Source: Squalus acanthias (Eukaryota). Taken from it: DNA of 64,000 nt. The stretch is taken from assembly GCA_030390025.1 (NCBI GenBank), contig CM059431.1, forward strand, positions 94,738,001 through 94,802,000. The letters are read 5' to 3'. A model generated the notes under the pieces. That model was not told where the DNA came from. It saw nothing but the letters and a program-made list of their open reading frames with translations, and searched no databases. Made by a program: the position numbers and the translations under genes. Below, one piece after another: positions 41,321-64,000 of this stretch (position 1 is its first letter; each line of letters begins with the position of its first letter).

Positions 41321-43118
41321 ATGGAGAGGGTGAGAGAACGAGCTCAGCGCTTCAGCGAGCGGGCCTTGGATGCTCTGGTTGGCGCGGTGGAGCGCAGAAG
41401 ATCTATACTCTTCCCTGAGAGTGGCAGGAGGCCTTTGCCGCGCGAGTACAGAAGAGTGTGGAGGGAGGTGGCTCAGAGCGTCTCCTGCAGGAGCATGGTG
41501 CCCAGGACCCATGTACAATGTCAAAAAAAGTTCAACGACCTCACTCGGGTCGTCAGGGTGAGTGGCTTTTTTTCAATACCTCTCCATCCCTCCATCTCAA
41601 CCTCACTCTATGGCCAGAGGGTCTTAAAACCCCAATGCACAACACTCATCCAACACCTATGGCCCTCTCATGAAACACACACGCACATTCCACACTATGC
41701 ATACAGTAAGGGCTATTCACCTATGGGAGGCACATCAGGCAAGACCATGGCTGCATACAGTAAGGGCTATTCACCTATGGGAGGCACATCAGGCAAGACC
41801 ATGGCTGTATATTTACTCAGACGCCGTCCTTTTTCTTGCAGGCCAAGCTATCTCATAATAGGAGACAGCAGCAACGGACGGGTGGAGGGCGGCCTCGGCT
41901 GCAACCCCTCAGCGATCTTGAGGCGCGCGTCCAGAGGATTGTGGCAAGCCGGGTGATCGGTCCCGTCGCCACTGGAGACGCCGACCCCGTTCTGGACAGC
42001 AATGGTAAGGTCATCACCTTTTTGTCCTCTGTCCTTCCACTTGTCCCTCACAACACCAGCCTTTGACACTTTCAATCCAACTTACTAAATCGTTGCACTC
42101 ATTCCTCCCTTACTGCCACCCTGTCCTCACGCTAAAGCCACTCTGTACCTCCCTGCTTTCAGATGGTGATTCACCAGCTGAGGAGACGGGCCTTCAAGCT
42201 GCCAGTGGGAGTGAAGCTGCAGGCGAGGAGGAAGATGAAGGCGGCGCATCAGTGCCACCCTCTCCCGAGGAAGCCCATGCCCACACTGGGAACACGCCTT
42301 CCCTGGAGGGGAGCAGGGGGGAAGGATCTGATGAGGGTGAAGCTCCAGGACCCAGCGGGCTGCAGCAACGCCATGGGGGTAGGGAAGAACGGGGGCCTTC
42401 TACCCGGAGGGAGAGTATGCCAGCGACTCCTACTGCACTGGACGCAGAGGAGGAGTGGCTCATCGCTGAAATGAACACCCAGGCGGTGGACATGTACATT
42501 GAGCTCATGGGTGCAGTGGGAAGGGTGCCCGAATGCATTGAATCACTGGCAAGGAGTATGGAGCACTTCGCTGTAGCACAGGCGGATGCCACACTAAAGC
42601 TTAGTGCTGCAATTCAGTCTCAGACTGCTCTCATGCAGACTCAGATTGAGGCCACACGAGCACTGACTGCTGCCATCCTCGATGGTTCGTACACATTTCC
42701 CCGGGGCTCTCACCGCGCCGCAGCAGGCCAGCAGTCTGTGCTCCAGCAGATTGCTCCGGATGCTGAAGTGCTGCCCCGTGGGAGTTCCAGTGTGTCGGTC
42801 GAGCAGGGAGTTGCTGTCCTCTCTCAAGATGACAGCATTCCTGCTGCCACCACTGTCACTTCTCCACTGCACTTGCCACCGCCTGTTGGACAGACTGCTG
42901 CCGCCCATGCAGAGTTGGTGCAGTCTGCAGCCGGGCCCTCCAGGCCTAGAGCTGGTCGAGGCCGTCCTTCAAGGGCATCTGCAGTCTCAGGTTCTGACAA
43001 TCAGCAGCCTTCCACCAGCCTTGCTGCAGCCACTGAGGTCCCATTACGGAGGAGCAGTAGGGTAAGAAGGGGGGAAGTGCGCAAGGGAAGGAGATCACCC
43101 TCGAAGGGCAAAAAGTAG
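41321..43118 (+). CDS. Harbinger Myb/SANT-like DNA-binding protein, 3 exons (41321-41557, 41842-42004, 42163-43118), about 451 aa, open frame
   Basis: RFSERALDALV...W..VA..V...RT..QC.KKFNDL / KL.HNRRQQQRTGGG; canonical GT-AG sites with compatible phases; basic C-terminus. Confidence 0.85.
41698..41805. repeat. Perfect 2 x 54 bp tandem duplication in Myb-gene intron 1
   Basis: TGCATACAGTAAGGGC...GACCATGGC occurs twice. Confidence 0.95.
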
Positions 43119-43417
43119 GAGGTGTGACAAAATGTTGGTCATTTTTTTACTAAAGGCTAAGGTTCGTGGTCAAACTTTTGGACATTATCTCCAGGTTATG
43201 AGAACCAGTTATGTTAATGACTGTGTTTTTGTGTTTCTTTCTATTAGTTTGTCATGAGGAAATGACACACACAGAGTTTGTGAAATAAATAAGTTTTTGT
43301 ATTCAAAATATACATGTTTGGTGTTTGGAATCATTGGTGCCTTGGCCGGCTTAGGGGTTGCGGGTTGGTTTCATTCATGTTGTTCTCAATGGCAGAAGCC
43401 ATTTCCACAGCAGGGGC

Positions 43418-44590
43418 CTAGAAGCGGCTTGCTATCAGCCGTTGACGGACGGCCCTTGCAGTTTCAACATTGTGGGCCGCCCTCACGCCTTGGTGCTGCT
43501 GATGATCCTCCTCCTCTTCCTCCTCCTCCTCTGGTGGTGCTCCAAGGCCTGGTGGCATTGGCTGGGTCCTGAGGATTGCCATGTTATGCAGCATGCAGCA
43601 CACAACTACAAAGTGGGAAACTCGTTCAGGCGAGTACTGCAGGGCTCCTCCAGAATGGTCCAGACAGCGGAACCGTTGCTTCAGCACGCCGATTGTGTGC
43701 TCAACAATGTTCCTGTAGCTTGATGGCTCTCGTAGTACCGCAGCTCAGCAGGGGTGTTGGGCATACGGAGCGGTGTCATCAGCCAGGTGCTCAGTGGATA
43801 CCCCTTGTCCCCGAGAAGCCAACCAACTGGCTGATGCGGTGCCTCAAAGTTCTGCCACAGTAGTCTGGCGCAGGATGAAAGTATCGTGGCAGCTGCCAGG
43901 ATAGTGGGCATTGACGGCGAGTATCAGCTGTCTGTGGTCACAGACCAACTGAACATTCAAGGAATGGAACCCCTTTCTGTTCCGGAAATCCTCGGCATTC
44001 TCATGCGGAGCACGCAAAGCCACATGCGTGCAGTCAATGGCGCCCTGCACCATGGGGAAGCCCGCTATCCTCGCAAAGCCCAGAGCGCGTTCATGCTGCT
44101 TGTCTGGGGTCATGGGGAAAGAGATGTACTCTCGTCTCCTTTTAAAGAGGGCATTTGTGACCTGACGGATGCAGCAATGCACCGCGAACTGGGAGATATT
44201 GACGATGTCCCCAGCAGCAGATTGAAATGAGCCAGTAGCATAAAAGTTCAGAGCCACTGTGATCTTCACTGCCACCGACAGAGACGTCCTGGACCTCAGT
44301 TGAGGCTGCAGATCTGGCTGCAGCAGGTGGCAGAGCTCAGTGACCACCTCCTTGCTGAAGTGCAGCCTCCGCAAACACTGCTCCTCAGACATGTGAATGT
44401 AGGAGAGCTGTTCACGATATACCCTGGGAGGGTAAGCTCTCCTGTACAGACGCCTGTTGGCCCTCCTCCGTCTGGCCATCATTGCCACTCTCTCTCTGCG
44501 TCTCTGTGTCCTCCGATTCAGCTGGCGCAGGACGACGCCCCCGATCAGTGCAGCCCCCAGTCTCTTAGCAAGCAAAGTTATGAAGGCCAA
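43418..44590 (-). pseudogene. Harbinger (HARBI1-like) DDE transposase with two frameshifts
   Basis: [41 protein letters not shown] and CCMLHN lie in three frames; shifts near 43860 and 43712; no ATG start evident. Confidence 0.92.
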
Positions 44591-47105
44591 AAACCAAAGT
44601 ACCTGCCAAGTTATGATCAGTAGCCAAAACTACCTCACACAGCGTTGACTCAATGCAGAAGTCTCTCTTTCTCTCTCTCCGAATCTCTCTCTCTCTCTCT
44701 CAGAACGAGTGGTGCAAAAATGTCAACCACAGAGAAAGACAGGAAGAGGCCCCCTTTAAATAGCGCCCCCCCCCCCAGCCCCACAGCGACTGATAGCGTT
44801 CCAGTCTTCCGGTCGTTGGATGCGCCAGGCGGAAAGGATGGGGGCGCCACTCAATTTCCGCTCCGGGGTGCCACAAGGGCGTTGTACCCTCGTATGACGT
44901 CAAGATCTGCGTGCGCAGGAGATCGCGGCGGTAAAGTTTAGCGCCGCCGCAAAATGTCTAGTTAAGTTCGCGAGCGGCGCAAACATTGCTGCGCCCAGGC
45001 GCTAGCTGCTTTGCGCCCTCTTAAGGCGCTAACGGGAGGCGCAACCAACTGAATTTTTCCCCCAAAGCCTTCAGGCTTGTTTTTTTAATGCTCTTAGACC
45101 TATATGAATTATTATTTACTGTGACCATGTTTGATTTAAACCGTTTTATGGAACAAAAAAAAGAGGGTGTATGATGCATGTCAAGTGAATTCATCAAGGG
45201 AGAACCAGACCAAATACGATAAGTTGAGAGGGGAAGTGAAGATGAAAATAAGATTGACAAAGAGAGAATATGAGAGGGAACCCAAAAGGGAACATAAAAG
45301 GGAACCCAAAATCTTCTACCGGCATGTAAACAGTAAGCGGGTAGTAAGAGGCCTATTAGCGACATAGAAGGTGTTATATGCTTAGAGGCGCAGGGCAAGG
45401 CTAGAACACTCAATGAGTACTTTGTATCGGTAATTACTAAGGAGGTGGCAGCTGACAAAATATCAGTAGCTGTGGAAGAGGTAGAAGCAATGAAAAGGGT
45501 GAAAATTGATAGACCGGATGTACGAGAAACGCTGGGTATGCTTAGAGTGGACAAGTCGCCTGGCCCAGATGGCTTGCATCCCAGATTGCGAAGGGAATTG
45601 GGGGAGGAGATAGTGGAAGGGCTTGCCATAATTTTCCAATCTTCCCTAGATGTTGGGGAGGTGCCTGAGGATTGGAAAGTGGCAAATGTGACACCATTGT
45701 TCAAGAAAGGGTGTAAGGACAATCCTAGTAACTACAAGCTGGTCAGTTTAACATCAGTGGTGGGTAAAGTTTTCGAAACAATAATCAAGGAAAAAATTAA
45801 AGGGCACTTGGAGAGGTTTAAGCTAATTAAGGAGAGCCAACACGATTTGTAAAAGGTAGATCATGTTTGACTAATTAATTGAATTTTTTGATGAAGTAAC
45901 AGGGAGGATCGATGAAGGGATGTTGTCTACATGGATTTTAGGAAGGTGTTTGACAAAGTACCACATAGAAGGCTGGTTAACAAAATTGAGGCTCACGGAA
46001 TAGGTGGGTCAGTGGCAGCTTGGATAAGGAATTGGCTTAAGGACAGAAAACAGCGAGTTGTGGTAAATGGCTGTTTTTCAGACTGGAGGATGGTAGACAG
46101 TGGTGTTCCCCAAGGGTCAGTGCTGGGGCCACTGCTTTTTTTTGCTATATATAAATGACTTGGATATTGGAATACAAAGTAGAATTTCTAAATTTGCCGA
46201 TGACCCCAAACTTGGGGGTGTGGCAAACAGTGAGGATGATACCAATCGACTGCAACAGGACATAGAAAGGCTAGCAGAATGGGCAGACAAGTGGCAGATG
46301 GAATTTAATACAGAGAAGTGTGAGGTGATGCATTTTGGCAGAAGGAACATGGAGAGGCAAAATACACTTAATGGCACAGTTTTAAAGAGTGTGCAGGGAC
46401 AGGGGGACCTGGGAGTTAATGTGCATAGGTCCCTGAAGGTGGCGGGACATATTGAGAGAGTGGTTAACAAAGCGTATGGGATCTTGGGCTTCATAAATAG
46501 AGGTATTGAGTACAAAAGTAGAGAAGTTATGCTGAACCTTTATAAAGTGCTGGTTCGGCCACAACTGGAGTATTGCGTCCAGTTCTGGTCACCACACTTT
46601 AGGAAGGATGTGAAGGCCCTTGAGAGGGTGCAGAGGAGATTTACCAGAATGGTTCCGGGGATGGGGAATCTTGGCTAAAAGGACAGGTTGGAGAAGCTGG
46701 ATTTGTTTTTGTTAGAGCAAAGGAGGTTGAGGGGTGATTTGATAGAGGTGTACAAGATTATGACGGGTTTGGATAGGCTAGACGGGGAAAGGCTGTTCCC
46801 ACTTGTTGATGGTACAAGGACTAGGGGACACAGATTTAAGGTTTTGGGCAAGAGATATAGGGGGATGTGAGAAAAAACTTTTTTACGCAGCGAGTGGTGA
46901 GGACCTGGAACTCGCTGCCGACGGAACTGGTGGAAGCGGAAACGCTCAAGGTTTTCAAGGGGAGACTAGATAGGCACTTGAGGGAAATAAACTTGCAGGG
47001 CTACGGGGATAGAGTGGGGGGAATGGGACTGACTGGATTGCTCTACAGAGAGCCGGCGTGGACTCGATGGACTGAATGGCCTCCTTCTGTGCCGTTATGA
47101 CTCTA

Positions 47106-47842
47106 TCCTAGATTTCCTGTTGTTCTTCCCGCGGTTGTGTTTTATTCGTAGGGGAAGGGATTTTCGGGCGAACTTTCACTTTTAATTCCGTTTACGTATT
47201 CCGATACATGATAAGTAACACACATTTCGTGGCATAGTTCTCCCTCCTTTTCATCCAGCATCCATTGATAAGGGGGGTAATTTTCTGCACCGTACACGAA
47301 CGCAGGAGAAAGGCTGTAAACCGGGAATTCGGACAATTTTTCAGTGGGCCTGGTCGAGGGTTTACGCATCCATATAAACCCTCATACTCTTGGCACCATC
47401 GTGGCCAACATAACATGGTTTCTCCATTGTCTTCCGATTGAGTTGGGCTCCCATTATGTGTCCAAGGATCCCCTATCTGGTGATAACTAGTATTGTCACC
47501 CACCTTTGCCTGAATGAACCATACACGTGGCTGATTCATAGTCCCACTCTTACACTTTATACATATTCCCCTCTCTTCTTGGACCGTGTATGTGGTTACC
47601 CGTACTATTCCTGAACAACTTGTGTCGCACGTACCCTTGATGGATCAGAGGCTAACCTCCCGAGCGATACCTAGGGGCAGAGTTACAGGGGCAATGGTAA
47701 TCTGACTGTCATAACTTGAATTGCTGGATGCTTCCCCTTGTGTTGCTGCTGCCCTTTCGAGATGGAGCACTATGCCACACAGCAACCAAAATAGCCTCCC
47801 CAGTTTCTCTGCCTTGTTCTGGCCTGTGGAAGAGGGGAACAA
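47106..47842 (-). pseudogene. Probable env N-terminal part: signal-peptide-like segment and Cys-rich, possibly Ig-like domain
   Basis: ORFs 47645-47842 and 47192-47539 are in one frame separated by a single TGA; LFWLLCGIVLHLERAAA hydrophobic stretch; lies between integrase and the CR1 insertion. Confidence 0.6.
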
Positions 47843-48049: not shown

Positions 48050-50690
48050 GTTTCACCAGGGCTTGCTGACTTCTTGACATGCTTGTGGGCTGAAAAAGCT
48101 TCATCTGGTTAATGTGAAACCATTTGATTTTCTTGGGTAACTAAACCGCGTATATCATAGGACTGACTTTATCAACAATGTTATACGGTCCCTTGTAGAG
48201 GGGTTCGAAAACTCCCACCCTCGCATAGTTTCATACCATTACTTGGCTTCCCACCTCCCATTCCTGGGGTTTACTTGGAGCCAGGTGTAGTCGATTGCTT
48301 TGGTGTGTCTTCCCAATGTTACGGGCGGCTCAAGTTCAGTTCCTTTGAAGTCCCCCCACAGGTCGCTCAGGAATTTGTCCTGAGTGACTTCTTTAATTTG
48401 ATTATTAGTCAGAGTGGGAATGAACAGGTGTGTGGGGGTTCGCATGGGTCTCCCTGTTATCAGTTCATGAGGGGAATGACCCGTTCCTTTGGATCTGTTA
48501 CTGTGTACCCCCATAAGGATTAGGGGAAGTACCTCATCCCACTTAGTGTGTTGTTCATTTAATTCCTTTCGCAGGGCCAACTTCAATGTACAGTTCATTC
48601 TTTCCACAATCCCTGATGACTGCTGGTTGTGGGTCACATGCCATTTCCCTTCAATTCCAAACAATTTCAGGGTGGCTTGCATTACTTGACCTGTAAAATG
48701 ACTTCCTTGATCTGATTCCACCACTCGGGGAAGCCCCCATCTAGAAACTACCTCCCTGACTAGGGTCTTGGCCGTCCATAATGCTGTATCTGACTTGCAC
48801 GGGAAAGCTTTGACCCACTTGGTAAAATTGTCCCACTAGGATGAGACAATATTTATCGCCCTTCTTAGTGGTGGGCAGGGGTCCGATAAAATCTATCTGG
48901 ACACACTGCCACGGTCCCTCTGGTTGACGGATATGTCTGAGGGGAGCCTTTCTTTTATGTGGGTCAGGATTGTTAGCAGCACACACTAAACAGGTTTTAT
49001 AGTAATTTTCTACGTCTTCCCTCAGATGAGGCCGCCACCCTACCTCTTCGACCAGTTTCCAGGTTGTTTCGGGTCCGGGATGTCCAGCCCCCGTGAGTCA
49101 GCCGCATGAATTCCTCCCTGTATCCTTCGGGCACAATCCACTTATCACGTTTGAACAACATACCTTCCCTGATGTTTACATCTTTGGCCCATAAGGCCCT
49201 TCTACAATCTGTCCTGCTTCTTTTTCCTTGAGGACTGTTTTTAGCACTACATCTGTCGGCTCTATTGTTTTGATAGCCAGGGGAAGCGGAATAGTAACAG
49301 CCGGAGTGACGGCTGCTACCACTCCCGATTGATACGGGTCCCGCGGGACCCATCTCTCCGCTCCCACTTTAGCAAGCTCGTCCACTTTCCTATTTCCCTC
49401 CCATCTGGGTTCTGCTTTAGAGTGGGCTTTGACTTTATGGATATAGTATTCATCGCCACCCCTTTTTATGACTTCCAGTATGGTTGCCAGCATTGACGCG
49501 GTAACCAGTGGCTTGCCATCTGCTGACTTAAAACCTCTTCTAGCTGTATTCCGTGCAAGAATTACATGTAAACATAGTCAGAGCAGATCATATAGGGTGG
49601 GGGAAATTCAGTGGGATGTGTTGCCACATAAGTTACAGCTGCTAACTCTGCCTGCTGAGCACTAAGAGTGGTGGGTAACTTAATCGCCACTTCCATTGCT
49701 TTCTGTGGGTCGTAAATTCCACACCCTGTTTTACATTCCCCCTTTTCTACAAAACTAGACCCATCCACATATGTCTCTCCCCTCAGGGTGGATACCAGAT
49801 TTAAATCCGCCTTCTGTTTCCCACACCCCCTCGACTGTACAGGTGTGTTTCCCCTTATATATAAGGTTGGGTACTAATTTCGGATCGCTTATCGGTTTCA
49901 CTTTCAGGTTCATCCCTTCTAACTGTAGGGTCCACGTAGCCACCCGAGTGCTTGACATCATTCCCTCCTTAATTCTGCCTTCTAACAGGAGGCGGGTTGG
50001 CGTGTGGTGGGTAAGGAGAGTGATGGGCTGGGTTCCCGTGAATACGGCAAAATGCTTCACTGCAAGCAAGTGCCACTCACAGGTAAAGTATCCCTTCTCC
50101 ACCTCAGATAGTCCTTTGGAGGCATAAGCAACTGGTCTCAGACACCCATTCACTTCCTGTATTAAAACAGCACTCGGACTGGTGTCTGTTGCCGTAACTT
50201 CCAAAAAGAAGTCCTTCTTCGGGTCTGTGGCCCCCCAATGCTGGGGCTGTTTGTAGGTCCTTTTTCAACTTTACAAAAGCTTCCTCACAGTGCTCATCCC
50301 AATCCCATTCCACTCCCTTTCTGAGTAATCTCAGCAAAGGAGCAACCGTCGCTGCCTAATTCTCAATAAATTCTCTACAGTACCCTGTCAGACCCAGGAA
50401 TGATCTGAGAGCAGCTATTGAACCCGGGCGGTGCAATTCCTGGACAGTTTTGCACTTTGCTTCGTCTATCGCGCGCTCCCCTGGTCGAAGAGTCAGTCCA
50501 AGAAACTGAACATCTCTTTGCCCTATTTGTGCCTTCTTGGGGTTTACCTTAAAACCTACGGCTGCAAGCAATTCTAACAATTCCTGCAGTAGTTCCTCAT
50601 GTTCCTCTTTGCTATCGGAGAACAGCAGTAAATCATCCACATCCTGTACAAGCTGGCCTGGTTGACTGAATTCTGATAGGCTGTTAGCCG
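48050..50690 (-). pseudogene. pol: pol: RT C-terminal half, tether (degenerate RNase H), retroviral RNase H, integrase
   Basis: QDVDDLLL (mutated YVDD), LRSFLGLTGYCR; PVAYASK.L; YVDGSS...SAQQAELAAV...KVKAH...GN..VDELAK; HHCC; QIDFIG, ESDQGSHF-x35-E; GPY motif. Confidence 0.93.
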
Positions 50691-51749
50691 TACATTTTAA
50701 TGAGAAGCCTGTAAAAAGTGTTTTTTCTAGTTGCCTGAGCATTAAGGATGTCAACAGTTGAACAGCAAACAGCTGCTATGTGGTCTGCTTCACTCCTTTT
50801 GCCAGCTCTAATTTTAGTAATGCTTGTTGAGATAGGAGCATATAAACAACTTGCTTCTTTAAACTGCTCCTTTAAAGGAGAAACTTCCCAATGTGCTTCA
50901 CAAGTTAAGAGCAATGACCATAAGTTTGGTTTTAAGGAGGCTTTTAAAGGTGAATACAGAGGGAGCAAAGGGGAAGGAGTTTAGGAAGCGAGTAGATAAG
51001 AGACAGCTGAAGGTTCTGTTATCGATACTGAAACAGGGAAAGGGAGGGTTGCAGAGGAGGCCAGAGTCCCTGGACTGGAGGGCACAGGCTGGGATTTGAG
51101 GCAGGAGCAGGTTAGAGGTAGGATGAGTTCGGACCATGAGGGGATTTAAAATTTCTACTTGTCATGGGGCATTTCCTGAGGCAATGTGAAATGAGTTTCT
51201 CTCAACACAAGTCAATGGACACTGTGGAGGTAACGTTAACCTAACTCGCCAGGCAGGTAGAGGGTGGGTTGGATGCCCGTTTTACACCCTGCCTGATTTT
51301 ACTCTCCATTGACCCGAATCCGCCCGGCAGATTAGGTTAAAACTATCCCCTGTATTTCACATGTGCCCTTATGCAGAAGTACTAGAACAGCCCATTGCTC
51401 TTTTTAAAATTTACAAGCAGTCTCAATTTTCTTTTTGTAATTTTTGATGTTCTACCCAGTTATCCCACTGTTTCACAGACGTGTCAGAATAAAATGCACC
51501 ATGAAAGTCAATAAAGAACCCTTCCACCTATCCAACTCCCTCTCCTCCTTTAAGACCCTGCTTAAAACACACCTCTTTGGCCAAGCTTTTGGTTACCCCT
51601 CCTAATATCTCCTCCTTTGGTTCGGCATCCGTATTTGTCTGATTATGCCTCTGTGAAGCGCCTTAGGGTGTTTTTCTATGTTAACGATGCTATATAAATG
51701 CAAGTTGTTGTTGTAGAATGACAGAACCTTTTAACTCATTTAATTGCAG

Positions 51750-57330: not shown

Positions 57331-57408
57331 AACTTACTAAGGAACATAGGACCAGGAATAGGCGATTCAGCCCCTCGAGCCTGTTGCACCATTCAATTAA
57401 ATCTTGAC

Positions 57409-60400
57409 TGGTCCCATCCACCCGGGTCACGTACTGCGGGGGTTCATCATACCTTACTAAGTGGTCTGCCTGATGTACTCCTATATTCTCCACGCAGAAT
57501 AGAGGATTTGGGGTTGCCTTTTCATGCAGGATGGGATAATAGAATGCCATCCCTAATAAGGTGATGTCATTCTGTTCCAGCAAATGACATTTGTGTTTTA
57601 CTGGGTACACCTGTACTAGTTCTGGTAAATTGATAAGTGGACATTGCCCTCAGATGTCGATCAGTCACCCACAAGAGAAGCTTCCCCTCAGCAATGCGCT
57701 GCAGGTTTTCACAGGCTTGTTCCACTAACCAGGATCCATACGTTACACAAACATCATTTTGCATGGCCTCACTAGAGGCATTCAGATTCTCCTTTCTAAT
57801 TTGGTTTATCTTTTTAGCATGGGATTCTAAATAGTTAAAACACGTCCTGCACTTGAATGGTCATAATTTGGTCCTCCTTCAATTCCTCTTGTTCTAGACC
57901 ATTCATTTTATTCAGAATTTCCTTTAGACGATTTCTAACTGCCTTTACGGATTGATCGAAATCAGCCAAATCAAGGCTATTCACAAGGGAGGTTCCGGTA
58001 TTAAAAACAGCGGCTGCATCATTTATCAGACCCCGTCGCGTTCTGATATGGTCCCCTTTAACCCCGTAACTGATGTTGTTTCCTTCAGTGATCTCAGTAT
58101 TTTCCCCAAAGTTATTGTTAAATCCATTACTATCTCATGAGCCCTTGCACTATAATGGCTCTAATTCTGATTTCGCCAAAGTTGTGCTGGCTCTTTCCCA
58201 AAATCCTTTTATTAATTCCCGCACCATTCTCCCATATAACCGTGCTGTTTCTGGTTTGCGCCAGTTCAGTATTCCCACCTCGGTCAGATTTAATATCACA
58301 GGTACCACCTCCTGATGCACATCATGGTACTATATCATCCACGTTGGGATTACTACTAACCCATTTGTCGGCGTCTGAGAGTATTTGAGACAGACAAAGA
58401 GGAGGTGGACCTGTGTGGGAGCGGCAGCGGGACCTGAGAGAAGGCGGAGTGGCCAAAAAGGACCGCGGCTGAGGAGGCCCGACACCGGAGGAGGCGGACC
58501 TGCATGGGAGCGGCAGCAGGACCTGAGAGGCAAAATTCAAAAGAGTGACGTCAGAGTGAACAAAGTGACGTCGGCATTAGGGAAGGAGCTGATTGGTGAG
58601 TAGCTGGTGAGTGTCTTTTCTTTTTAAGTTTTAGAAATGTATTTGTTTTTTTTGAGCATCACTTTTTTTTGTCTGTAGCCTTTTAGCCTTTAGCTAAGGG
58701 CAGCGTGTTATACTAAATACTTCAATTAATGAATCTAATAACTAGAGGCATGGCAGGGCAGTTCGGTCCCGTGGAGTGCACATTCTGTGCCATGTGGGAA
58801 GTCCTGGACGCTTCGCGTAGCCTGGATCACCACATGTGCAGGAAGTGTCGCCAGCTGCAGCAACTCGAGTTCCGGGTTTCGGAGATTGAGCAGCAGCTGG
58901 AGTCACTGCGGTGCATCCACGAGGCCGAGAGTTACGTGGATAGCACAGTTCAGGAGGTGGTCACCCCACAGCTAAAGAGTGTGCAGGCAGAGAGGAAATG
59001 AGTGACTGCTAGACAGAAGAGGAGGACCAGGCAGGTAGTGCAGGAGTCCCCAGAGTGCATCTCGCTCTCCAACCAGTATTCTGTTCCGAGTACTGGTGAG
59101 GGGGATGGTTCCTCTGGGAAGTGCAGCCAGAGACAAGTCCACAGCACCACGGGTGGCGCAGCTGCACAGGTGGGGAGGAAAAAGAGTGGAAGAGCTATAG
59201 CGGTAGGGGATTCGATAGTTAGGGGAGCAGATAGGCGTTTCTGCGGCCGTAGACGTGACTCCAGGATGGTATGTTGCCTCCCTGGTGCCAGGGTCAAGGA
59301 TGTCACTGAGCGGCTGCAGGACACTGAGGGGAGAGGGTGAACAGCCAGAGGTTGTTGTCCATATCGGTACCAGCGACATAGGCAGAAAGAGGGATGAGGT
59401 CCTGCAGGCAGAGTTTAGGGAGCTAGGAAAGAGATTAAAAAGCAGGACCTCAACAGTCGTAATCTACGGATTACTCCCGGTGCCACGTGCTCGTGAGTAC
59501 AGGGATAGGAGGATAGAACAGATGAATGCATGGCTGGAGAGATGGTGCAGGAGGGAGGGCTTTAGATTCCTGAGGCATTGGGATCGTTTCTGGGGAAGGT
59601 AGGACCTGTACAAGCCGGACGGGTTACACCTCAACAGAGCTGGGACCAATATTCTCGCGGGGAGGTTTGATAGTGCTGTTGGGGAGGGTTTAAACTCGCT
59701 TGGCAGGGGGATGGGCACCAACATATAGGAGTAGAAAAGAGGAAGAAAGTGCATAAAAGAGTGAGTGTGTTGGATAGTACTGAAGAAGAAAGTAGTACTA
59801 GAGGCAGAAGTAGTACCACATTAGATAGGAGCAGAGTAAGAAAGACTACGAAAAATTCAAAAATGGGTTTAGAATGCATGTGCGTAAATGCACAAAGTGT
59901 GGTGAATAAGGTTGGTGAGCTGCAAGCACAATTAACCGTTTGGCAATATGATGTTGTGGCAATAACGGAAACGTGGCTTAAAAACAGTGAGGACTGGGCA
60001 CTTAATATTCAAGGGTACAAGGTGTTCAGAAAAGATAAGGAAGGAAAAAAGGGGGGTGGGGTGGTAGTGCTGATTAAGGAAGACATTGTAGTGTTGGAAA
60101 GGGAGGATGTTCTTGAGGGGACAAGGACAGAATCCATTTGGTTAGAGTTGAGGAGCAAAAAGGGTATGATCACGCTATTGGGGGTATTCTACAGGCCTCC
60201 AAATAGTGAGAGGGAGGTAGAGGATCAAATCTGCAGGGAAATTGCAGAGATATGCAAGAGCTACAGAGTGGTGATATTGGGGGACTTTAATTACCCAAAT
60301 ATCGATTGGGATAATGCTAGGGTAAAGGGAAAGGAGGGGGACGAATTTCTGAAATGTGTTCAGGAGAATTTCCTTGACCAGTATGTTCTTGGCCCAACTA

Positions 60401-63400
60401 GGAAGGAGGCATTGCTGGATCTGGTGCTGGGGAATGAGTTGAGCCAGGTCAGCCAAGTGTCTGTGGGAGAGCACTTGGGTACGAGTGATCATCGTATCAT
60501 AAGATTTAGATTAGCAATGGAGATGAGCAAGGAACAATCTAGAGTGGAACTTTTAAACTGGTATAGGGCTAACTTCAATGGGATGCGAAAGGATCTAGCC
60601 AGGGTAAAATGGAACCAAAGACTAACAGGAAAATCTGTAACGGAACAATGAGTGATCTTCAAGGAAGAGATGTTCCAAGTACAGGCTAGGTACATTCCAA
60701 CAAGAGGTAAGGGAACCAAAGCAAGGGTTGTTTGGATGACGAGGGAGATAGAGAAACATAGAAACATAGATAGGAGCAGGAGTAGGCCATTCGGCCCCTC
60801 GAGCCTGCTCCGCCATTCGATGAGATCATGGCTGATCATCCAAACTCAGTACCCTGTCCCTGCCTTCTCCCCATATCCCTTGATACCTTTAGCTTTAAGA
60901 AATATATCGAACTCATTCTTGAATATATTTAATGACTTGGCCTCAACTACCTTCTGCGGTAGAGAATTCCACAGGTTCACCACTCTGAGTGAAGAAATTC
61001 TTCCTCATTTCTGTCCTAAATGGCTTACCCCTTATCCTTAGATTATGACCCCTGGTTCTGGACTCTCCGACCATCGGGAACATTCTTCCTGCATCTAGTT
61101 TGTCCAGACCTGTCAGAATTTTATATGTTTCGATGAGATCCCCTCTCATTCTTCTATACTCCAGCGAGTATAAGCCCAATCTCTCCTCATATGTCATTCC
61201 TGCCATCCCAGGTATCAGCCTTGTGAATCTTCGCTGAACTCCTTCCATGGCAAGAACATCCTTCCTCAGATAAGGTGACCAAAACTGCACACAGTACTCA
61301 AGGTGTGGTCTCACCAAGGCCCTATACAACTGCAGCAGGACATCCCTGTTCCTATACTCAAACCCTTTCGCTATGAAGGCCAACATACCATTTGCCGCCT
61401 TCACCGCCTGCTGCACCTGCATGCTTACCTTCAGCGACTGGTGCACAAGGACACCCAGGTCTCGTTGCACTTCCCCTTCTCCCAATCTATTGCCATTCAG
61501 ATAATAGTCTGCCTGTCTGTTTTTGACATCAAAGTGGATAACCTTGCATTTATCCACGTTGTATTGCATCTGCCACGCTTCTGCCCACTCACCCAACCTG
61601 TCCAAATCATCCTGGAGTTTCTCGGTATCCTCCTCGCAGCACACACTCCCACCCAGCTTTGTGTCATCTGCAAACTTGGAGATATTACATTTACTTCCCT
61701 TATCTAGATCATTAATGTATATTGTGAATAGCTGGGGTCCAAGGACCGATCCCTGCGGTACCCCACTAGTCACTGCCTGCCACTCGGAAAAAGACCCATT
61801 AATTCCTACTCTCTGCTTTCTGTCCGCCAACCAGTTCTCTATCCAAGTCAATACCTTGCCCCCAATCCCATGTGCCTTAACTTTACACGCTAATCTCTTA
61901 TGCGGGACCTTATCGAAAGCCTTTTGAAAGTCCAAATACACCACATCTACTGGTTCTCCCTTATCTATTTTCCCAGTTACATCCTCAAAAAATTCCAGTA
62001 GATTAGTCAAGCACGATTTACTTTTTGTAAATCCATGTTGACTTTGTCCGATTCTGTCATTGTTTTTCAAGTGCTCAGCTATTACATCCTTTATAATGGA
62101 CTCTAGCATTTTCCCCACTACCGATGTCAGGCTTACCGGTCTGTAATTGCCCGCTTTCTCTCTACCACCTTTTTGAATAGTGGGGTAACAATCCATGGGT
62201 ACAGTTCCAGATTCCATCGAATGTTGGAAGATGATCAGCAATGCATCTACTATTCCTAGGGCCACTTCCTTAAGTACCCTATGATGTAGATTATCAGGTC
62301 CTGGGGATTTATCGGCCTTCAATTTCCCTAACACCATTTCCCTGCAAATACTGATTTCTTTCAGTTCCTCCCTTTCATCAGACTGTATGTTCTCCAACAT
62401 CTCTGGGAGGTTATTTGTGTCCTCCTTTGTGAAGACAGAACCAAAATATGCATTTAATTGGTCTGCCATTTCTTTGTTCCCCATTATAACTTCCCCCGCT
62501 TCTGACTGCAAGGGACCTACACTTGATTTCACTAATCTTTTTCTCTTCACATATCTATAAAAGCTCTTAGTCAGTTATTTTCCCTGCAAGCTTACTTTCA
62601 TATTCTATTTTCCCCTTCTTAATTAATCCCTTTGTCCTCCTTTGTTGAATCCTAAACCGCTCCCAATCCTCAGGGTTACCGCTTTTTCTGGCCAATTTAT
62701 ATGCCCTCTCCTTGGATCTTATGCTATCCCTAATTTCCCTTGTTAGCCACGGTTGAGTCACCCTTTTTGTTTTATTCTTATGCCACACTGGGATGAACAA
62801 ATTCTGTAGTTCATCCATGCAGTCTTTGAATGTTTGCCATTGCCTATCCACCGTCAACCCCTTGAGTGACATTCCCCAATCAATCCTACCCAATTCGCGC
62901 CTCATACCATCGTAGTTTCCTTTATTTAAATTCAGGACCCTAGTCTCTGATTCTACTACTTCACTCTCCGTCCTAATGAAGAATTCGATCATATTATGAT
63001 CACTCTGACCCAAGGGGCCTTGTACAACAAGATTGCTAATTAATCCTTTCTCGTTACATAATACCCAGTCTAAGATGGCCTGATCTCTGGTTGGTTCCTC
63101 GACATATTGTTCCAGAAAACCATCCCGTAAACATTCTAGGAATTCCTCCTCCACAGTATTTTTACTAATTTGGTTAGCCCAATCTATATGTAAATTAAAG
63201 TCACCCATGATGACTGCTGTGCCCTTACTGCATGATTCTCTAATTTCCCTTTTAATGCCGTCCCCAACCTCCGTATTACTGTTTGGAGGTCTATATACCA
63301 CTCCCACTAACGTTTTCTGCCCCTTGTTATTTCTCAGTTCTACCCATACAGATTCCGCATCATCAGAGCTAATATCCTTCCTTTCAATTGTGTTAATCCC

Positions 63401-64000
63401 CTCTTTAACCAGCAATGCTACCCCACCTCCCTTTCTTTTTTGCCTATCTTTCCTAAATATTGAATACCCCTGGATGTTGAGTTCCCAGCCTTGGCCACCC
63501 TGGAGCCATGTTTCTGTAATCCCAATCAAATCGTATTCATTTACCTCTATTTGCGCAGCTAATTCATCCACCTTGTTCCGAATGCTCCTTGCATTAAGAC
63601 ACAAAGCCTTCAGGCTTGTTTTTTTAATGCTCTCAGACCTATATGAATTATTATTTACTGTGACCATGTTTGATTTAAACCGTTGATGAAACAAAAAAAG
63701 AGGGTGTATGATGCATGTCAGGTGAATTCATCAAGGGAGAACCAGACCAAATACGATAAGTTGAGAGGGGAAGTGAAGATGAAAATAAGATTGACAAAGA
63801 GAGAATATGAGAGGGAACCCAAAAGGGAACATAAAAGGGAACCCAAAAATCTTCTACCGGCATGTCAACAGTAAGCGGGTAGTAAGAGGCCTATTAGCGA
63901 CATAGAAGGTGTTATATGCTTAGAGGTGCAGGGCAAGGCTAGAACACTCAATGAGTACTTTGTATCGGTAGTTACTAAGGAGGTGGCGGCTGACAAAATA
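57409..64000 (+). repeat. Segmental duplicate of 34803-45462 lacking the Harbinger (env remnant 57409-~58397, CR1+ ~58398-60752, CR1- ~60753-63684, CR1+ resumes to the end)
   Basis: Near-identical sequence across identical element junctions; runs off the window. Confidence 0.96.
60943..63694 (-). pseudogene. CR1 ORF2 (APE 62567-63694, RT 60943-62550), nearly intact, in the duplicate copy
   Basis: 375-aa and 535-aa ORFs with [20 protein letters not shown] and FADD motifs. Confidence 0.92.

What the first reader, a model, noticed from the sequence alone, without database searches (positions are those of the whole stretch)
47106..47842. Apparent Ig-like domain at the N-terminus of the retroviral env
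Seen: reading through one TGA (47645-47, plausibly decayed CGA) gives a hydrophobic leader LFWLLCGIVLHLERAAA followed by TYTVQEERGICIKC-x10-W(FIQ)...MLCWPRWCQEYEGLYGC, and later TELKVKV. This matches the Ig pattern of A' strand, B-strand Cys, C-strand Trp, E-strand Leu and (D/E)GxYxC. The F-like portion (GLVVIP...VVPVILNL) starts only on the other side of the CR1 insertion. Inference: an env made of an Ig-like module plus an F-like fusogen, or a separate secreted accessory protein, possibly a captured host domain used for receptor binding or immune mimicry. Caveat: the gap between the F-strand Cys and the putative G strand is atypically long and the copy is degenerate.
Basis: inference. Interest (0 to 1): 0.78.

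Follow-up and report, generated by a model that had tools for sequence, protein, structure and literature searches.

The report
Antibody-like head on a retroviral envelope
A dead endogenous retrovirus here carries the broken front end of an envelope gene whose first ~190 residues probably fold like an antibody variable domain with a large hypervariable loop, most likely the part that once bound the host cell.

Summary
The quoted strings are all at 47842-47106 (minus strand).

The segment is not a separate gene. In 17 other loci of the same genome, and in an annotated skate protein, it lies in one open frame with a linker, a furin site, a fusion peptide, heptad repeats and a membrane anchor. 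It is therefore the N-terminal ectodomain of env.

Support for an Ig fold is moderate:
- The Cys/Trp/(D/E)xGxYxC positions are conserved, and framework pN/pS is 0.33.
- Pfam Ig_3 and V-set hits are in the right register but below threshold.
- Two low-confidence AlphaFold models from lineages about 36% identical match only Ig V/I-type domains (best VIA Z 9.3 and 6.6).
- Profile comparison with the host's own V-set exons is not significant, so recent host capture is not supported.

A 43-61-residue insert sits where CDR3 would be. It comes in five unrelated classes that have been swapped between frameworks.

The "F-like" nature of the fusogen rests on architecture and one language-model lead. All sequence tests for it were negative.

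The parts
48239..49097 (-). Integrase of the provirus. It lies just upstream of env.
   Evidence: Pfam Integrase_H2C2 E 1.1e-10 and rve E 2.6e-07. Further upstream are RNase_H, RT_RNaseH and RVT_1 (49565-50775).
47747..47803 (-). Env leader (LGRLFWLLCGIVLHLERAA). The start position reads CTG in this copy.
   Evidence: 25 of 30 copies have ATG at this aligned position. Mean Kyte-Doolittle hydropathy of the 12-residue core is 2.38. No signal-peptide predictor was available.
47645..47746 (-). Ser-rich stretch after the leader, ending in the in-frame TGA at 47645-47647.
   Evidence: Translation. In the alignment blocks that were printed the other copies carry a sense codon at this position.
47366..47644 (-). 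Ig-like core, from the A-like to the F-like strand. It runs from SIKGTCDTSC to EGLYGC. B-like Cys at 47563-47552, Trp at 47521-47519, F-like Cys at 47368-47366.
   Evidence: Conserved positions. Pfam Ig_3 and V-set match the homologous stretch of L061 below threshold. AF2 strands and Ig V-type fold matches.
47192..47365 (-). Hypervariable insert at the FG-loop (CDR3-like) position. In this copy it is broken by gaps of 13 nt (about 47335) and 17 nt (about 47186) and ends in a TAA.
   Evidence: Gaps relative to the majority of copies. Five insert classes of 43-61 aa with 25% identity between classes, against 57% for the framework.
47171..47191 (-). G-like strand TELKVKV.
   Evidence: E/L/K/V are kept in 32-36 of 39-42 rows. 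Modelled as a strand in both AF2 models, and included in the aligned range of the Ig matches.
47108..47170 (-). Pro-rich linker carrying an NKT site (RPKIPSPTNKTQPREEQQEI). It is cut off by the transposon insertion.
   Evidence: Same linker frame as in the open copies L061-L069.
35794..47107 (.). Block of nested transposons that splits env. It holds LINE reverse transcriptases on both strands and a DDE_Tnp_4 transposase.
   Evidence: Junctions read. Pfam RVT_1 and DDE_Tnp_4.
35675..35755 (-). First conserved strand of the fusogen part (GLVVIPT..VVPVILNLTE). This copy has two in-frame stops here.
   Evidence: Homologous to the segment that follows the linker in 17 open loci.
35366..35437 (-). 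RTRR cleavage motif (35437-35426) followed by a fusion-peptide-like GLINDAAAVFNTGTSLVNSL.
   Evidence: ORF 34961-35527. The same motif is present in L061 and L117.
34083..34235 (-). Membrane anchor (34235-34176), short tail and stop codon (34085-34083).
   Evidence: ORF 34083-34424. The homologous anchor in L117 scores hydropathy 2.55.

Best explanation
47842-47106 is the decayed 5' end of the env gene of an endogenous retrovirus on the minus strand.

In working relatives the gene encodes one polypeptide, in this order:
- a short cleavable-type leader;
- a Cys-rich domain of about 190 residues;
- a Pro-rich, glycosylated linker;
- a long class I fusogen with a furin site, fusion peptide, heptad repeats, an ectodomain of about 400 residues, a membrane anchor and a short tail.

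The N-terminal domain most likely folds as an Ig V-type beta-sandwich. The loop between its F-like and G-like strands, where antibodies have CDR3, is expanded into a 43-61-residue Cys-containing insert.

Inferred mechanism: the domain is the receptor-binding head and the insert sets receptor choice. After furin cleavage the head stays on the N-terminal fragment, as SU does, and receptor binding releases the fusogen.

Shown: one reading frame, conservation, purifying selection on the framework, variability and exchange of the insert.

Inferred: the Ig fold (from low-confidence models), receptor binding, and the trigger.
For: One gene:
- 17 loci hold the G-like strand, linker and fusogen start in one open frame.
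- L061 reads Met, leader, domain, linker, RGRRRK and fusion peptide in one frame of 459 aa.
- L116 plus L117 give open frames of 299 and 519 aa.
- The annotated skate protein P0007 has the same layout and is 73% identical over 255 aa.

Selection:
- Framework pN/pS is below 1 in 29 of 29 usable pairs, median 0.33.

Ig fold:
- Hallmark positions are conserved.
- Pfam on L061 gives Ig_3 E 0.0035, V-set E 0.016 and I-set E 0.096, all spanning B-like Cys to F-like Cys.
- L116 gives Ig_3 E 0.14 in the same register.
- ESM features: 9 of the 10 best named hits share the Ig clan.
- AF2 model 1 (the window's own family): Foldseek gives 14 hits at E <= 1e-3, and every chain I can identify among the rows listed is an Ig V/I-type domain (antibody, TCR, IgNAR, MyBP-C). 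Best is 5.8e-4, rmsd 2.7 A over 89 columns.
- For the same model, VIA best Z is 9.3, rmsd 2.7 A over 95 residues, with 79 chains at Z >= 8.
- AF2 model 2 (L061, about 36% identical to L024): the chains I can identify are again Ig V/I-type. Foldseek best is 2.3e-3 and VIA best Z is 6.6.
- In L115 only 16 residues separate the F-like Cys from GLKVQIK. The long insert is therefore a lineage-specific expansion of that loop.

Variable insert:
- Five classes, 25% identity between classes against 57% for the framework.
- The same insert class sits on divergent frameworks. For L064 against L067, framework pS is 0.77 and insert pS is 0.17.
Against: - AF2 confidence is low: mean pLDDT 46.6 and 51.0, pTM 0.47 and 0.44. 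The insert is unmodelled.
- The two alignments behind the models overlap, so the models are not independent. AF2 may also be led by the Ig-like motifs themselves.
- All Pfam Ig scores are under the curated cut-offs (18.3 against 30 bits; 15.8 against 26). Only 1 of 72 alignment members hits an Ig family.
- hhalign against host V-set exons gives probability 0.53 and E 0.11.
- A profile search of PDB sequences found nothing significant. Complement C3 scored E 0.46 and an antibody VL E 1.4.
- VIA Z under 8 (model 2) can reflect only a common strand arrangement.
- The domain has at least 7 conserved Cys, more than a plain Ig domain.
- phmmer against 1.84 billion representatives found only 3 spurious repeat proteins.
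- Receptor binding is untested.
Confidence: 0.62

Rival explanations
1. The N-terminal domain is a real, conserved part of env, but it is a Cys-rich beta domain of some other or new fold. The Ig picture would then be an artefact of low-confidence models and a few motif-like residues.
For: - Low pLDDT.
- Pfam scores below cut-off, and only 1 of 72 members hit an Ig family.
- hhalign not significant.
- No PDB sequence hit.
- Seven or more conserved Cys, including CxxxC and CxxC pairs.
- One third of the domain is unmodelled.
Against: - Two lineages about 36% identical give the same fold class with two different aligners.
- The weak Pfam hits in L061 and L116 share one register.
- The ESM neighbours are Ig families.
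- L115 has a short F-G loop, as a plain Ig domain would.
Confidence: 0.22
2. The segment is a recently captured host Ig-superfamily V exon, used for immune mimicry or as a decoy rather than for entry.
For: - V-type fold matches include shark and fish immune receptors.
- Viral Ig-like proteins of pox- and herpesviruses top the BFVD list, all weakly (best E 2.8e-3).
Against: - No significant similarity to 20 host V-set exons.
- No protein relatives outside env copies.
- The domain is present in env lineages only 28-36% identical to each other, and in a skate. If it was captured, the capture is old.
- It sits at the N-terminus of the only envelope protein, where a receptor-binding part is expected.
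Confidence: 0.07
3. The segment encodes a separate secreted accessory protein, not part of env.
For: - In the window the frame is closed by stops and by the transposon.
- In about 25 of 30 close copies the leader frame stops after 5-39 residues.
Against: - Those stops are decay shared within one subfamily.
- 17 loci, L061, L116/L117 and the skate protein P0007 read straight through into the fusogen.
- No second leader or start codon precedes the fusogen part.
Confidence: 0.02

Closest known systems
Foamy virus Env gp130 and the 'class Ib' fusogens (F scaffold plus receptor-binding modules): Fernandez et al. 2024, PMC11468914. I read the abstract and section 9.
   Same: - One envelope protein that carries its own receptor-binding module on a long, furin-cleaved class I fusogen.
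- No separate attachment protein.
- The paper describes such proteins as modular (RBD modules added to an F-type core), which is the layout proposed here.
   Different: - In foamy virus the RBD is inserted between N-SU and C-SU, and a long leader peptide with its own membrane span precedes it.
- Here the module comes directly after a short leader and before the first fusogen strand.
- Here the module looks Ig V-like.
- No sequence similarity to any PDB chain, foamy Env or F included, was found.
- The fold of the fusogen part was not tested here.
Lokiretrovirus Env: Wang and Han 2020, PMC7947760 (passages read); also PMC9040795 (passages read).
   Same: - A vertebrate endogenous retrovirus.
- An Env built as signal peptide, RxKR-type site, fusion peptide, coiled coil and membrane anchor. 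That Env is reported to resemble paramyxo- and pneumovirus F (PF00523, E 2.2e-7 in the paper).
- A dual RNase H in pol (RT_RNaseH plus RNase_H).
   Different: - PF00523 was not detected in any fragment, nor in an open 519-aa relative.
- The passages I read describe no N-terminal Ig-like domain.
- 'Cartilaginous' and 'shark' occur 0 times in that paper's text.
- RT phylogeny was not done here, so membership is open.
Gammaretroviral SU: a receptor-binding domain with an Ig-like sandwich core, variable regions and a following proline-rich region. This is recalled knowledge (Fass et al. 1997), not read here.
   Same: An N-terminal beta-sandwich head with variable segments that set receptor choice, followed by a Pro-rich hinge. 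Variable parts are exchanged by recombination.
   Different: - The partner subunit here has an ectodomain of about 400 residues and no CX6CC motif (0 matches in L117), unlike gamma-type TM.
- No gammaretroviral RBD appeared in the top 50 rows of any fold search. That is inconclusive.
Ig V-set domains (PF07686), including antibody, TCR and IgNAR V domains with a long CDR3.
   Same: - Predicted two-sheet sandwich.
- Cys, Trp and (D/E)xGxYxC at the expected spacing.
- An ELKV strand at the G position.
- The greatest variability at the CDR3 position.
   Different: - Scores are below the Pfam cut-offs.
- No significant profile match to host V exons.
- Extra conserved Cys.
- The loop insert of 43-61 residues has its own conserved PYQW and YHVxxCxNG anchors.

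Membership tests
Ig V-set / Ig-like domain (PF07686, PF13927, PF07679) | Score at or above Pfam's gathering cut-off. | tested here: not met
   L061 domain: Ig_3 18.3 bits (cut-off 30), V-set 15.8 (cut-off 26), I-set 13.2 (cut-off 23.7). Only 1 of 72 members hit any Ig family. L116: Ig_3 13.1 bits. The window ORF gave no hit.
Ig V-set / Ig-like domain | B-strand Cys, C-strand Trp and F-strand (D/E)xGxYxC at canonical spacing, conserved across relatives. | tested here: met
   Cys 42 of 50 rows, Trp 43 of 48, Gly 48 of 50, Tyr 43 of 49, Cys 47 of 49. About 70 residues lie between the two Cys. hhalign puts these residues on the host V-set hallmark columns.
Ig V-set / Ig-like domain | Two-sheet beta-sandwich fold. 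| tested here: inconclusive
   Two AF2 models match only chains I can identify as Ig V/I-type. Foldseek best E 5.8e-4 and 2.3e-3; VIA best Z 9.3 and 6.6. However, mean pLDDT is only 46.6 and 51.0.
Ig V-set / Ig-like domain | Significant profile-profile similarity to bona fide V-set domains. | tested here: not met
   hhalign of A2 against 20 host V-set exons (A3): probability 0.53, E 0.11 over 75 columns.
Paramyxo/pneumovirus-type F (PF00523), F-type Env | Sequence match to PF00523 or to solved F or foamy Env chains. | tested here: not met
   - No PF00523 hit in window fragments, L027, L061 or the open 519-aa L117.
- No F or foamy Env chain in PDB searches with a single sequence or a profile.
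- The genome-wide PF00523 scan found nothing, but it ran with a stricter first look and its controls were silent, so it is uninformative.
Paramyxo/pneumovirus-type F (PF00523), F-type Env | Furin site directly followed by a fusion peptide, then a heptad repeat, a large ectodomain, a second helix, a membrane anchor and a short tail. | tested here: met
   Read directly in the window (RTRR plus GLINDAAAVF...), in L061 and in L117 (RQRR at 63-66, anchor at about 470-490, about 404 residues between them, no CX6CC).
Paramyxo/pneumovirus-type F (PF00523), F-type Env | Domains I-III of the F fold. | not tested
The only lead is from ESM features: Baculo_F clusters 0.95 (213 shared features) and Fusion_gly 0.91.
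Lokiretroviruses | RT phylogeny that places the element with lokiretroviruses. | not tested
   No reference RT sequences were available to the tools. The pol domains found (RVT_1, RT_RNaseH, RNase_H, Integrase_H2C2, rve) are shared with other retroviruses.
Foamy virus Env | Long leader peptide with its own membrane span, and an RBD inserted inside the SU part of the F scaffold. | tested here: not met
   The leaders here are short: 19-25 residues in the window, L003 and L061. The domain lies before the first conserved fusogen strand. The comparison rests on PMC11468914 section 9.

The most novel reading that the evidence does not exclude
A large, old family of elasmobranch retroviruses uses a true antibody-type V domain as its receptor-binding head. 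The domain is fused ahead of an F/foamy-type fusogen. Receptor specificity lies in a CDR3-positioned cassette of 43-61 residues that is swapped between lineages by recombination. That would be a viral counterpart of a long-CDR3 antigen receptor, in the vertebrate group where such receptors first appear. The domain would be either an ancient capture from the host Ig superfamily or an independent viral Ig lineage.
Probability: 0.3. Interest if true: 0.8.

Novelty: new variant of a known kind. Interest (0 to 1): 0.6.

Why it matters
Viruses with F-type fusogens usually need a second protein to bind the cell. Foamy viruses and coronaviruses solve this by adding receptor-binding modules to the same scaffold.

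This envelope family would be a third solution, with a different module: an Ig V-like head whose CDR3-like loop is the variable, exchangeable part.

It offers a natural set of five or more head variants on one framework for studying how receptor choice evolves. It also assigns a function to proteins annotated as uncharacterized in shark and skate genomes.

I found no description of such a domain in:
- three full-text searches;
- the passages read of PMC7947760 and PMC9040795;
- the preprint 10.1101/2023.10.26.564294;
- PMC13709493.

Supplementary files of these papers were not opened and could hold relevant Env models.

Tried and rejected
- **Pfam on window and copy fragments.** Nothing significant.
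- **phmmer of the L024 frame against 1.84 billion representatives.** Three hits, all repetitive bacterial-type proteins and spurious.
- **The search for homologous proteins with the L061 376-aa frame.** None, with lengths 'longer' or 'near'.
- **PF00523 scan of the genome.** No match, but uninformative.
- **PDB sequence searches for the fusogen.** None relevant, with a single sequence or a profile.
- **PDB profile search for the N-domain.** Not significant.
- **hhalign against host V-set exons.** Not significant.
- **A 592-aa open frame on C22, hoped to be a whole fusogen.** It runs into a Gly/Glu/Arg simple repeat.
- **My first script to find the start codon.** It used a wrong offset and was replaced by an alignment-based count.
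- **Between-class pN/pS of the insert.** Meaningless, because the classes do not align (pS 0.7-0.9).
- **Gammaretroviral RBD, foamy RBD and paramyxovirus attachment proteins.** None appeared in the top 50 rows of any fold search. This does not exclude them.
- **Earlier-findings look-ups.** The look-ups by place (near), by words and by sequence returned nothing.

Full report
**What is at the coordinates**

The window lies in a 3.7-Gb vertebrate assembly. Earlier notes of this scan call it a cartilaginous-fish genome; I did not test that.

A provirus sits on the minus strand. Its pol carries the following Pfam domains:
- RVT_1, RT_RNaseH and RNase_H at 50775-49565;
- Integrase_H2C2 and rve at 49097-48239.

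The finding begins about 400 bases downstream of the integrase.

At 47107 a LINE 3' end begins. The retroviral sequence resumes near 35793, and GLVVIPT starts at 35755. The 11.3 kb in between holds LINE reverse transcriptases on both strands and a DDE_Tnp_4 transposase.

Downstream come an RTRR motif (35437-35426), a fusion-peptide-like stretch, heptad-rich sequence, a membrane anchor (34235-34176) and the stop codon at 34085-34083. These lie in four overlapping frames, so this part is decayed as well.

**How the window copy is broken**

A DNA search of the genome gave 53 matches at 79-100% identity. I aligned the window with 29 other copies. Relative to them:
- The position that is ATG in 25 of 30 copies is CTG in the window.
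- The window has the TGA already noted.
- It lacks 13 nt near 47335 and 17 nt near 47186.

The two gaps sum to 30 nt, so the frame before and after them is the same.

Other copies use the frame of the window ORF 47142-47381.

In about 25 of the 30 copies the frame that starts at the leader position stops after 5-39 residues. Only L003 (from its ATG) and the window (from its CTG) read on from the leader into the domain.

Copies cluster on a few contigs. The window locus itself is tandemly duplicated together with its transposon insertions (period about 22.6 kb, 97-99% identity). L002, just beyond the window end, shows the same transposon junction. Much of this subfamily therefore spread as dead DNA.

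**One gene, not two**

A protein search of the genome gave 155 matches, with 6958 first-look candidates and identities down to 36%. A second search, with a divergent member as query, gave 154 matches.

I fetched 33 short stretches from divergent lineages.
- In 17 loci the G-like strand, the linker and the first fusogen strand are in one open frame.
- In L061 a 459-aa frame runs through Met, a hydrophobic leader, the domain, the linker, GLVIIPT..., RGRRRK, a fusion peptide and a heptad repeat. The copy is broken after that point.
- The places of two earlier findings of this scan belong to the same env superfamily (tblastn E 1e-19 and 6e-17).
- One of those places has open frames of 299 and 519 aa covering the whole env.
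- Its relatives include uncharacterized proteins of a sawshark, and a 516-aa protein of a skate. The skate protein holds head, linker, cleavage site and heptad repeat in one chain, and is 73% identical over 255 residues.

The accessory-protein reading is therefore rejected.

**Is the head Ig-like?**

Evidence for:
1. Hallmark positions are conserved across rows that are 27-90% identical. The B-like Cys is kept in 42 of 50 rows, Trp in 43 of 48, and the EGxYxC Cys in 47 of 49. The ELKV strand is kept in 32-36 of 39-42 rows.
2. The framework is under purifying selection. pN/pS is below 1 in 29 of 29 pairs with usable divergence, median 0.33, among 14 distinct pieces. I dropped three rows because they were the same places fetched twice.
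3. Pfam gives weak hits in the expected register for the L061 domain: Ig_3 E 0.0035, V-set E 0.016, I-set E 0.096. L116 gives Ig_3 E 0.14.
4. The ESM-feature neighbours of the L024 frame are mostly Ig clusters at score 0.91. The tool's own recognition value for this query is low.
5. Two AlphaFold models were built from alignments of unaltered natural pieces.
   - Model 1 is L024, from the window's family: 57 rows, pLDDT 46.6, pTM 0.47.
   - Model 2 is L061: 72 rows, pLDDT 51.0, core blocks at 55-79.
   - Model 1 is clearly all-beta. Model 2 has fewer and shorter strands. The insert is unmodelled in both.
   - Model 1: Foldseek gives 14 hits at E <= 1e-3. The chains I can identify among the listed rows are antibody, TCR and IgNAR V domains and one MyBP-C Ig domain. 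VIA best Z is 9.3, with 79 chains at Z >= 8.
   - Model 2: Foldseek best is 2.3e-3, with nothing at 1e-3 or better. VIA best Z is 6.6. The best viral-library hit is a poxvirus Ig-like protein at 2.8e-3.
   - In the VIA searches the aligned ranges include the C-terminal ELKV strand.
6. In L115 only 16 residues separate the F-like Cys from GLKVQIK. That is what a plain Ig domain would show.

Evidence against:
- Every Pfam score is below its cut-off, and only 1 of 72 members hits an Ig family.
- hhalign against 20 V-set exons of the same genome puts the hallmark residues in register but is not significant (probability 0.53, E 0.11).
- A PDB profile search gave nothing significant.
- The models are of low confidence and share much of their input.

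I put the Ig fold at about two in three.

**The insert**

Between the F-like Cys and the G-like strand lie 43-61 residues. They fall into five classes with 25% mean identity between classes, against 57% for the framework (17 pieces, three of them duplicate fetches of the same places). Two short anchors (PYQW and YHVxxCxNG) are conserved within the insert.

Within a class, insert pN/pS (0.28-0.84) exceeds that of the framework in 13 of 19 pairs, but it is never above 1.

The same insert class occurs on frameworks that are far apart. For L064 against L067, framework pS is 0.77 and insert pS is 0.17. This points to exchange by recombination.

This is the pattern expected of a receptor-specificity determinant. 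That function is an inference.

**The fusogen**

Its architecture fits a large class I fusogen. In the open L117 frame there is one furin-type site followed directly by a fusion peptide, about 404 residues up to the anchor, no CX6CC motif and a short tail.

ESM features place the region from the first fusogen strand (GLVVIPT...) to the first heptad repeat next to baculovirus/errantivirus F clusters (0.95) and, lower down, Fusion_gly clusters (0.91).

All sequence tests for F or foamy Env were negative. 'F-like' is therefore plausible but not shown here.

**Comparison with what is known**

- F-type Env in retroelements is in print: lokiretroviruses (PMC7947760, PMC9040795) and errantiviruses (preprint 10.1101/2023.10.26.564294). 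I read passages of each.
- Fernandez et al. 2024 (PMC11468914; abstract and section 9 read) describe foamy Env, F and spike as one modular class. In that class, receptor-binding modules are added to a common core.
- The present family fits that idea, with a different module at a different place.
- I found no description of an Ig-like head on such an Env in the searches, or in the passages read.

**Verdict**

- The segment is the receptor-binding-type head of env.
- The head is probably Ig V-like, with a hypervariable CDR3-position insert.
- Host capture and the accessory-gene idea are not supported.
- This window's copy is an ordinary dead member of a large family. The interest lies in the family.

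Noticed in passing
window 34800-40230 and 57400-62880; also 45150-45460 and 63690-64000: The broken provirus, together with its nested transposons, is tandemly duplicated at 97-99% identity. The period is about 22.6 kb, or 18.5 kb for the upstream part, so one unit differs by about 4 kb. L002, just past the window end, carries the same LINE junction in env.
   Followed up: partly
L004-L026 and L028-L030 (oriented positions about 1550-1680): In about 25 of the 30 close copies the frame that starts at the leader position stops after 5-39 residues. Copies cluster on C7 144-148 Mb, C29 14-19 Mb, C262 and C1065. This suggests spread of an already dead template, or segmental duplication, rather than repeated infection.
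   Followed up: partly
L062, L064, L084 against L067, L068, L069: The same insert class sits on frameworks that differ at most synonymous sites (framework pS 0.69-0.85, insert pS 0.16-0.24). This points to recombination that swaps the variable cassette between env lineages.
   Followed up: partly
P0004-P0008: Public 'uncharacterized' proteins of a sawshark and a skate are pieces of this env family and carry no Pfam annotation. One sawshark model named 'Niban 1-like' (673 aa) matches 31% of the env query at 64% identity. It may be a gene model fused to a provirus.
   Followed up: no
L094 (C22:33909541-33911300), positions about 450-1150: In this copy the env frame runs into a long Gly/Glu/Arg-rich simple repeat that keeps a 363-aa frame open. 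It gave a misleading 592-aa 'open frame' in the genome search.
   Followed up: yes
window 43418-44629 (minus strand): A DDE_Tnp_4 transposase ORF (E 1e-14) lies among the transposons nested inside env.
   Followed up: partly
G000 C29 6.4-10.3 Mb, C13 52.9-54.8 Mb, C911 0.17-0.52 Mb: There are dense arrays of host V-set exons; all 150 scored matches are over the Pfam cut-off. They are presumably antigen-receptor loci. I used 20 of the matches, drawn from these and other contigs, only as a comparison set.
   Followed up: no
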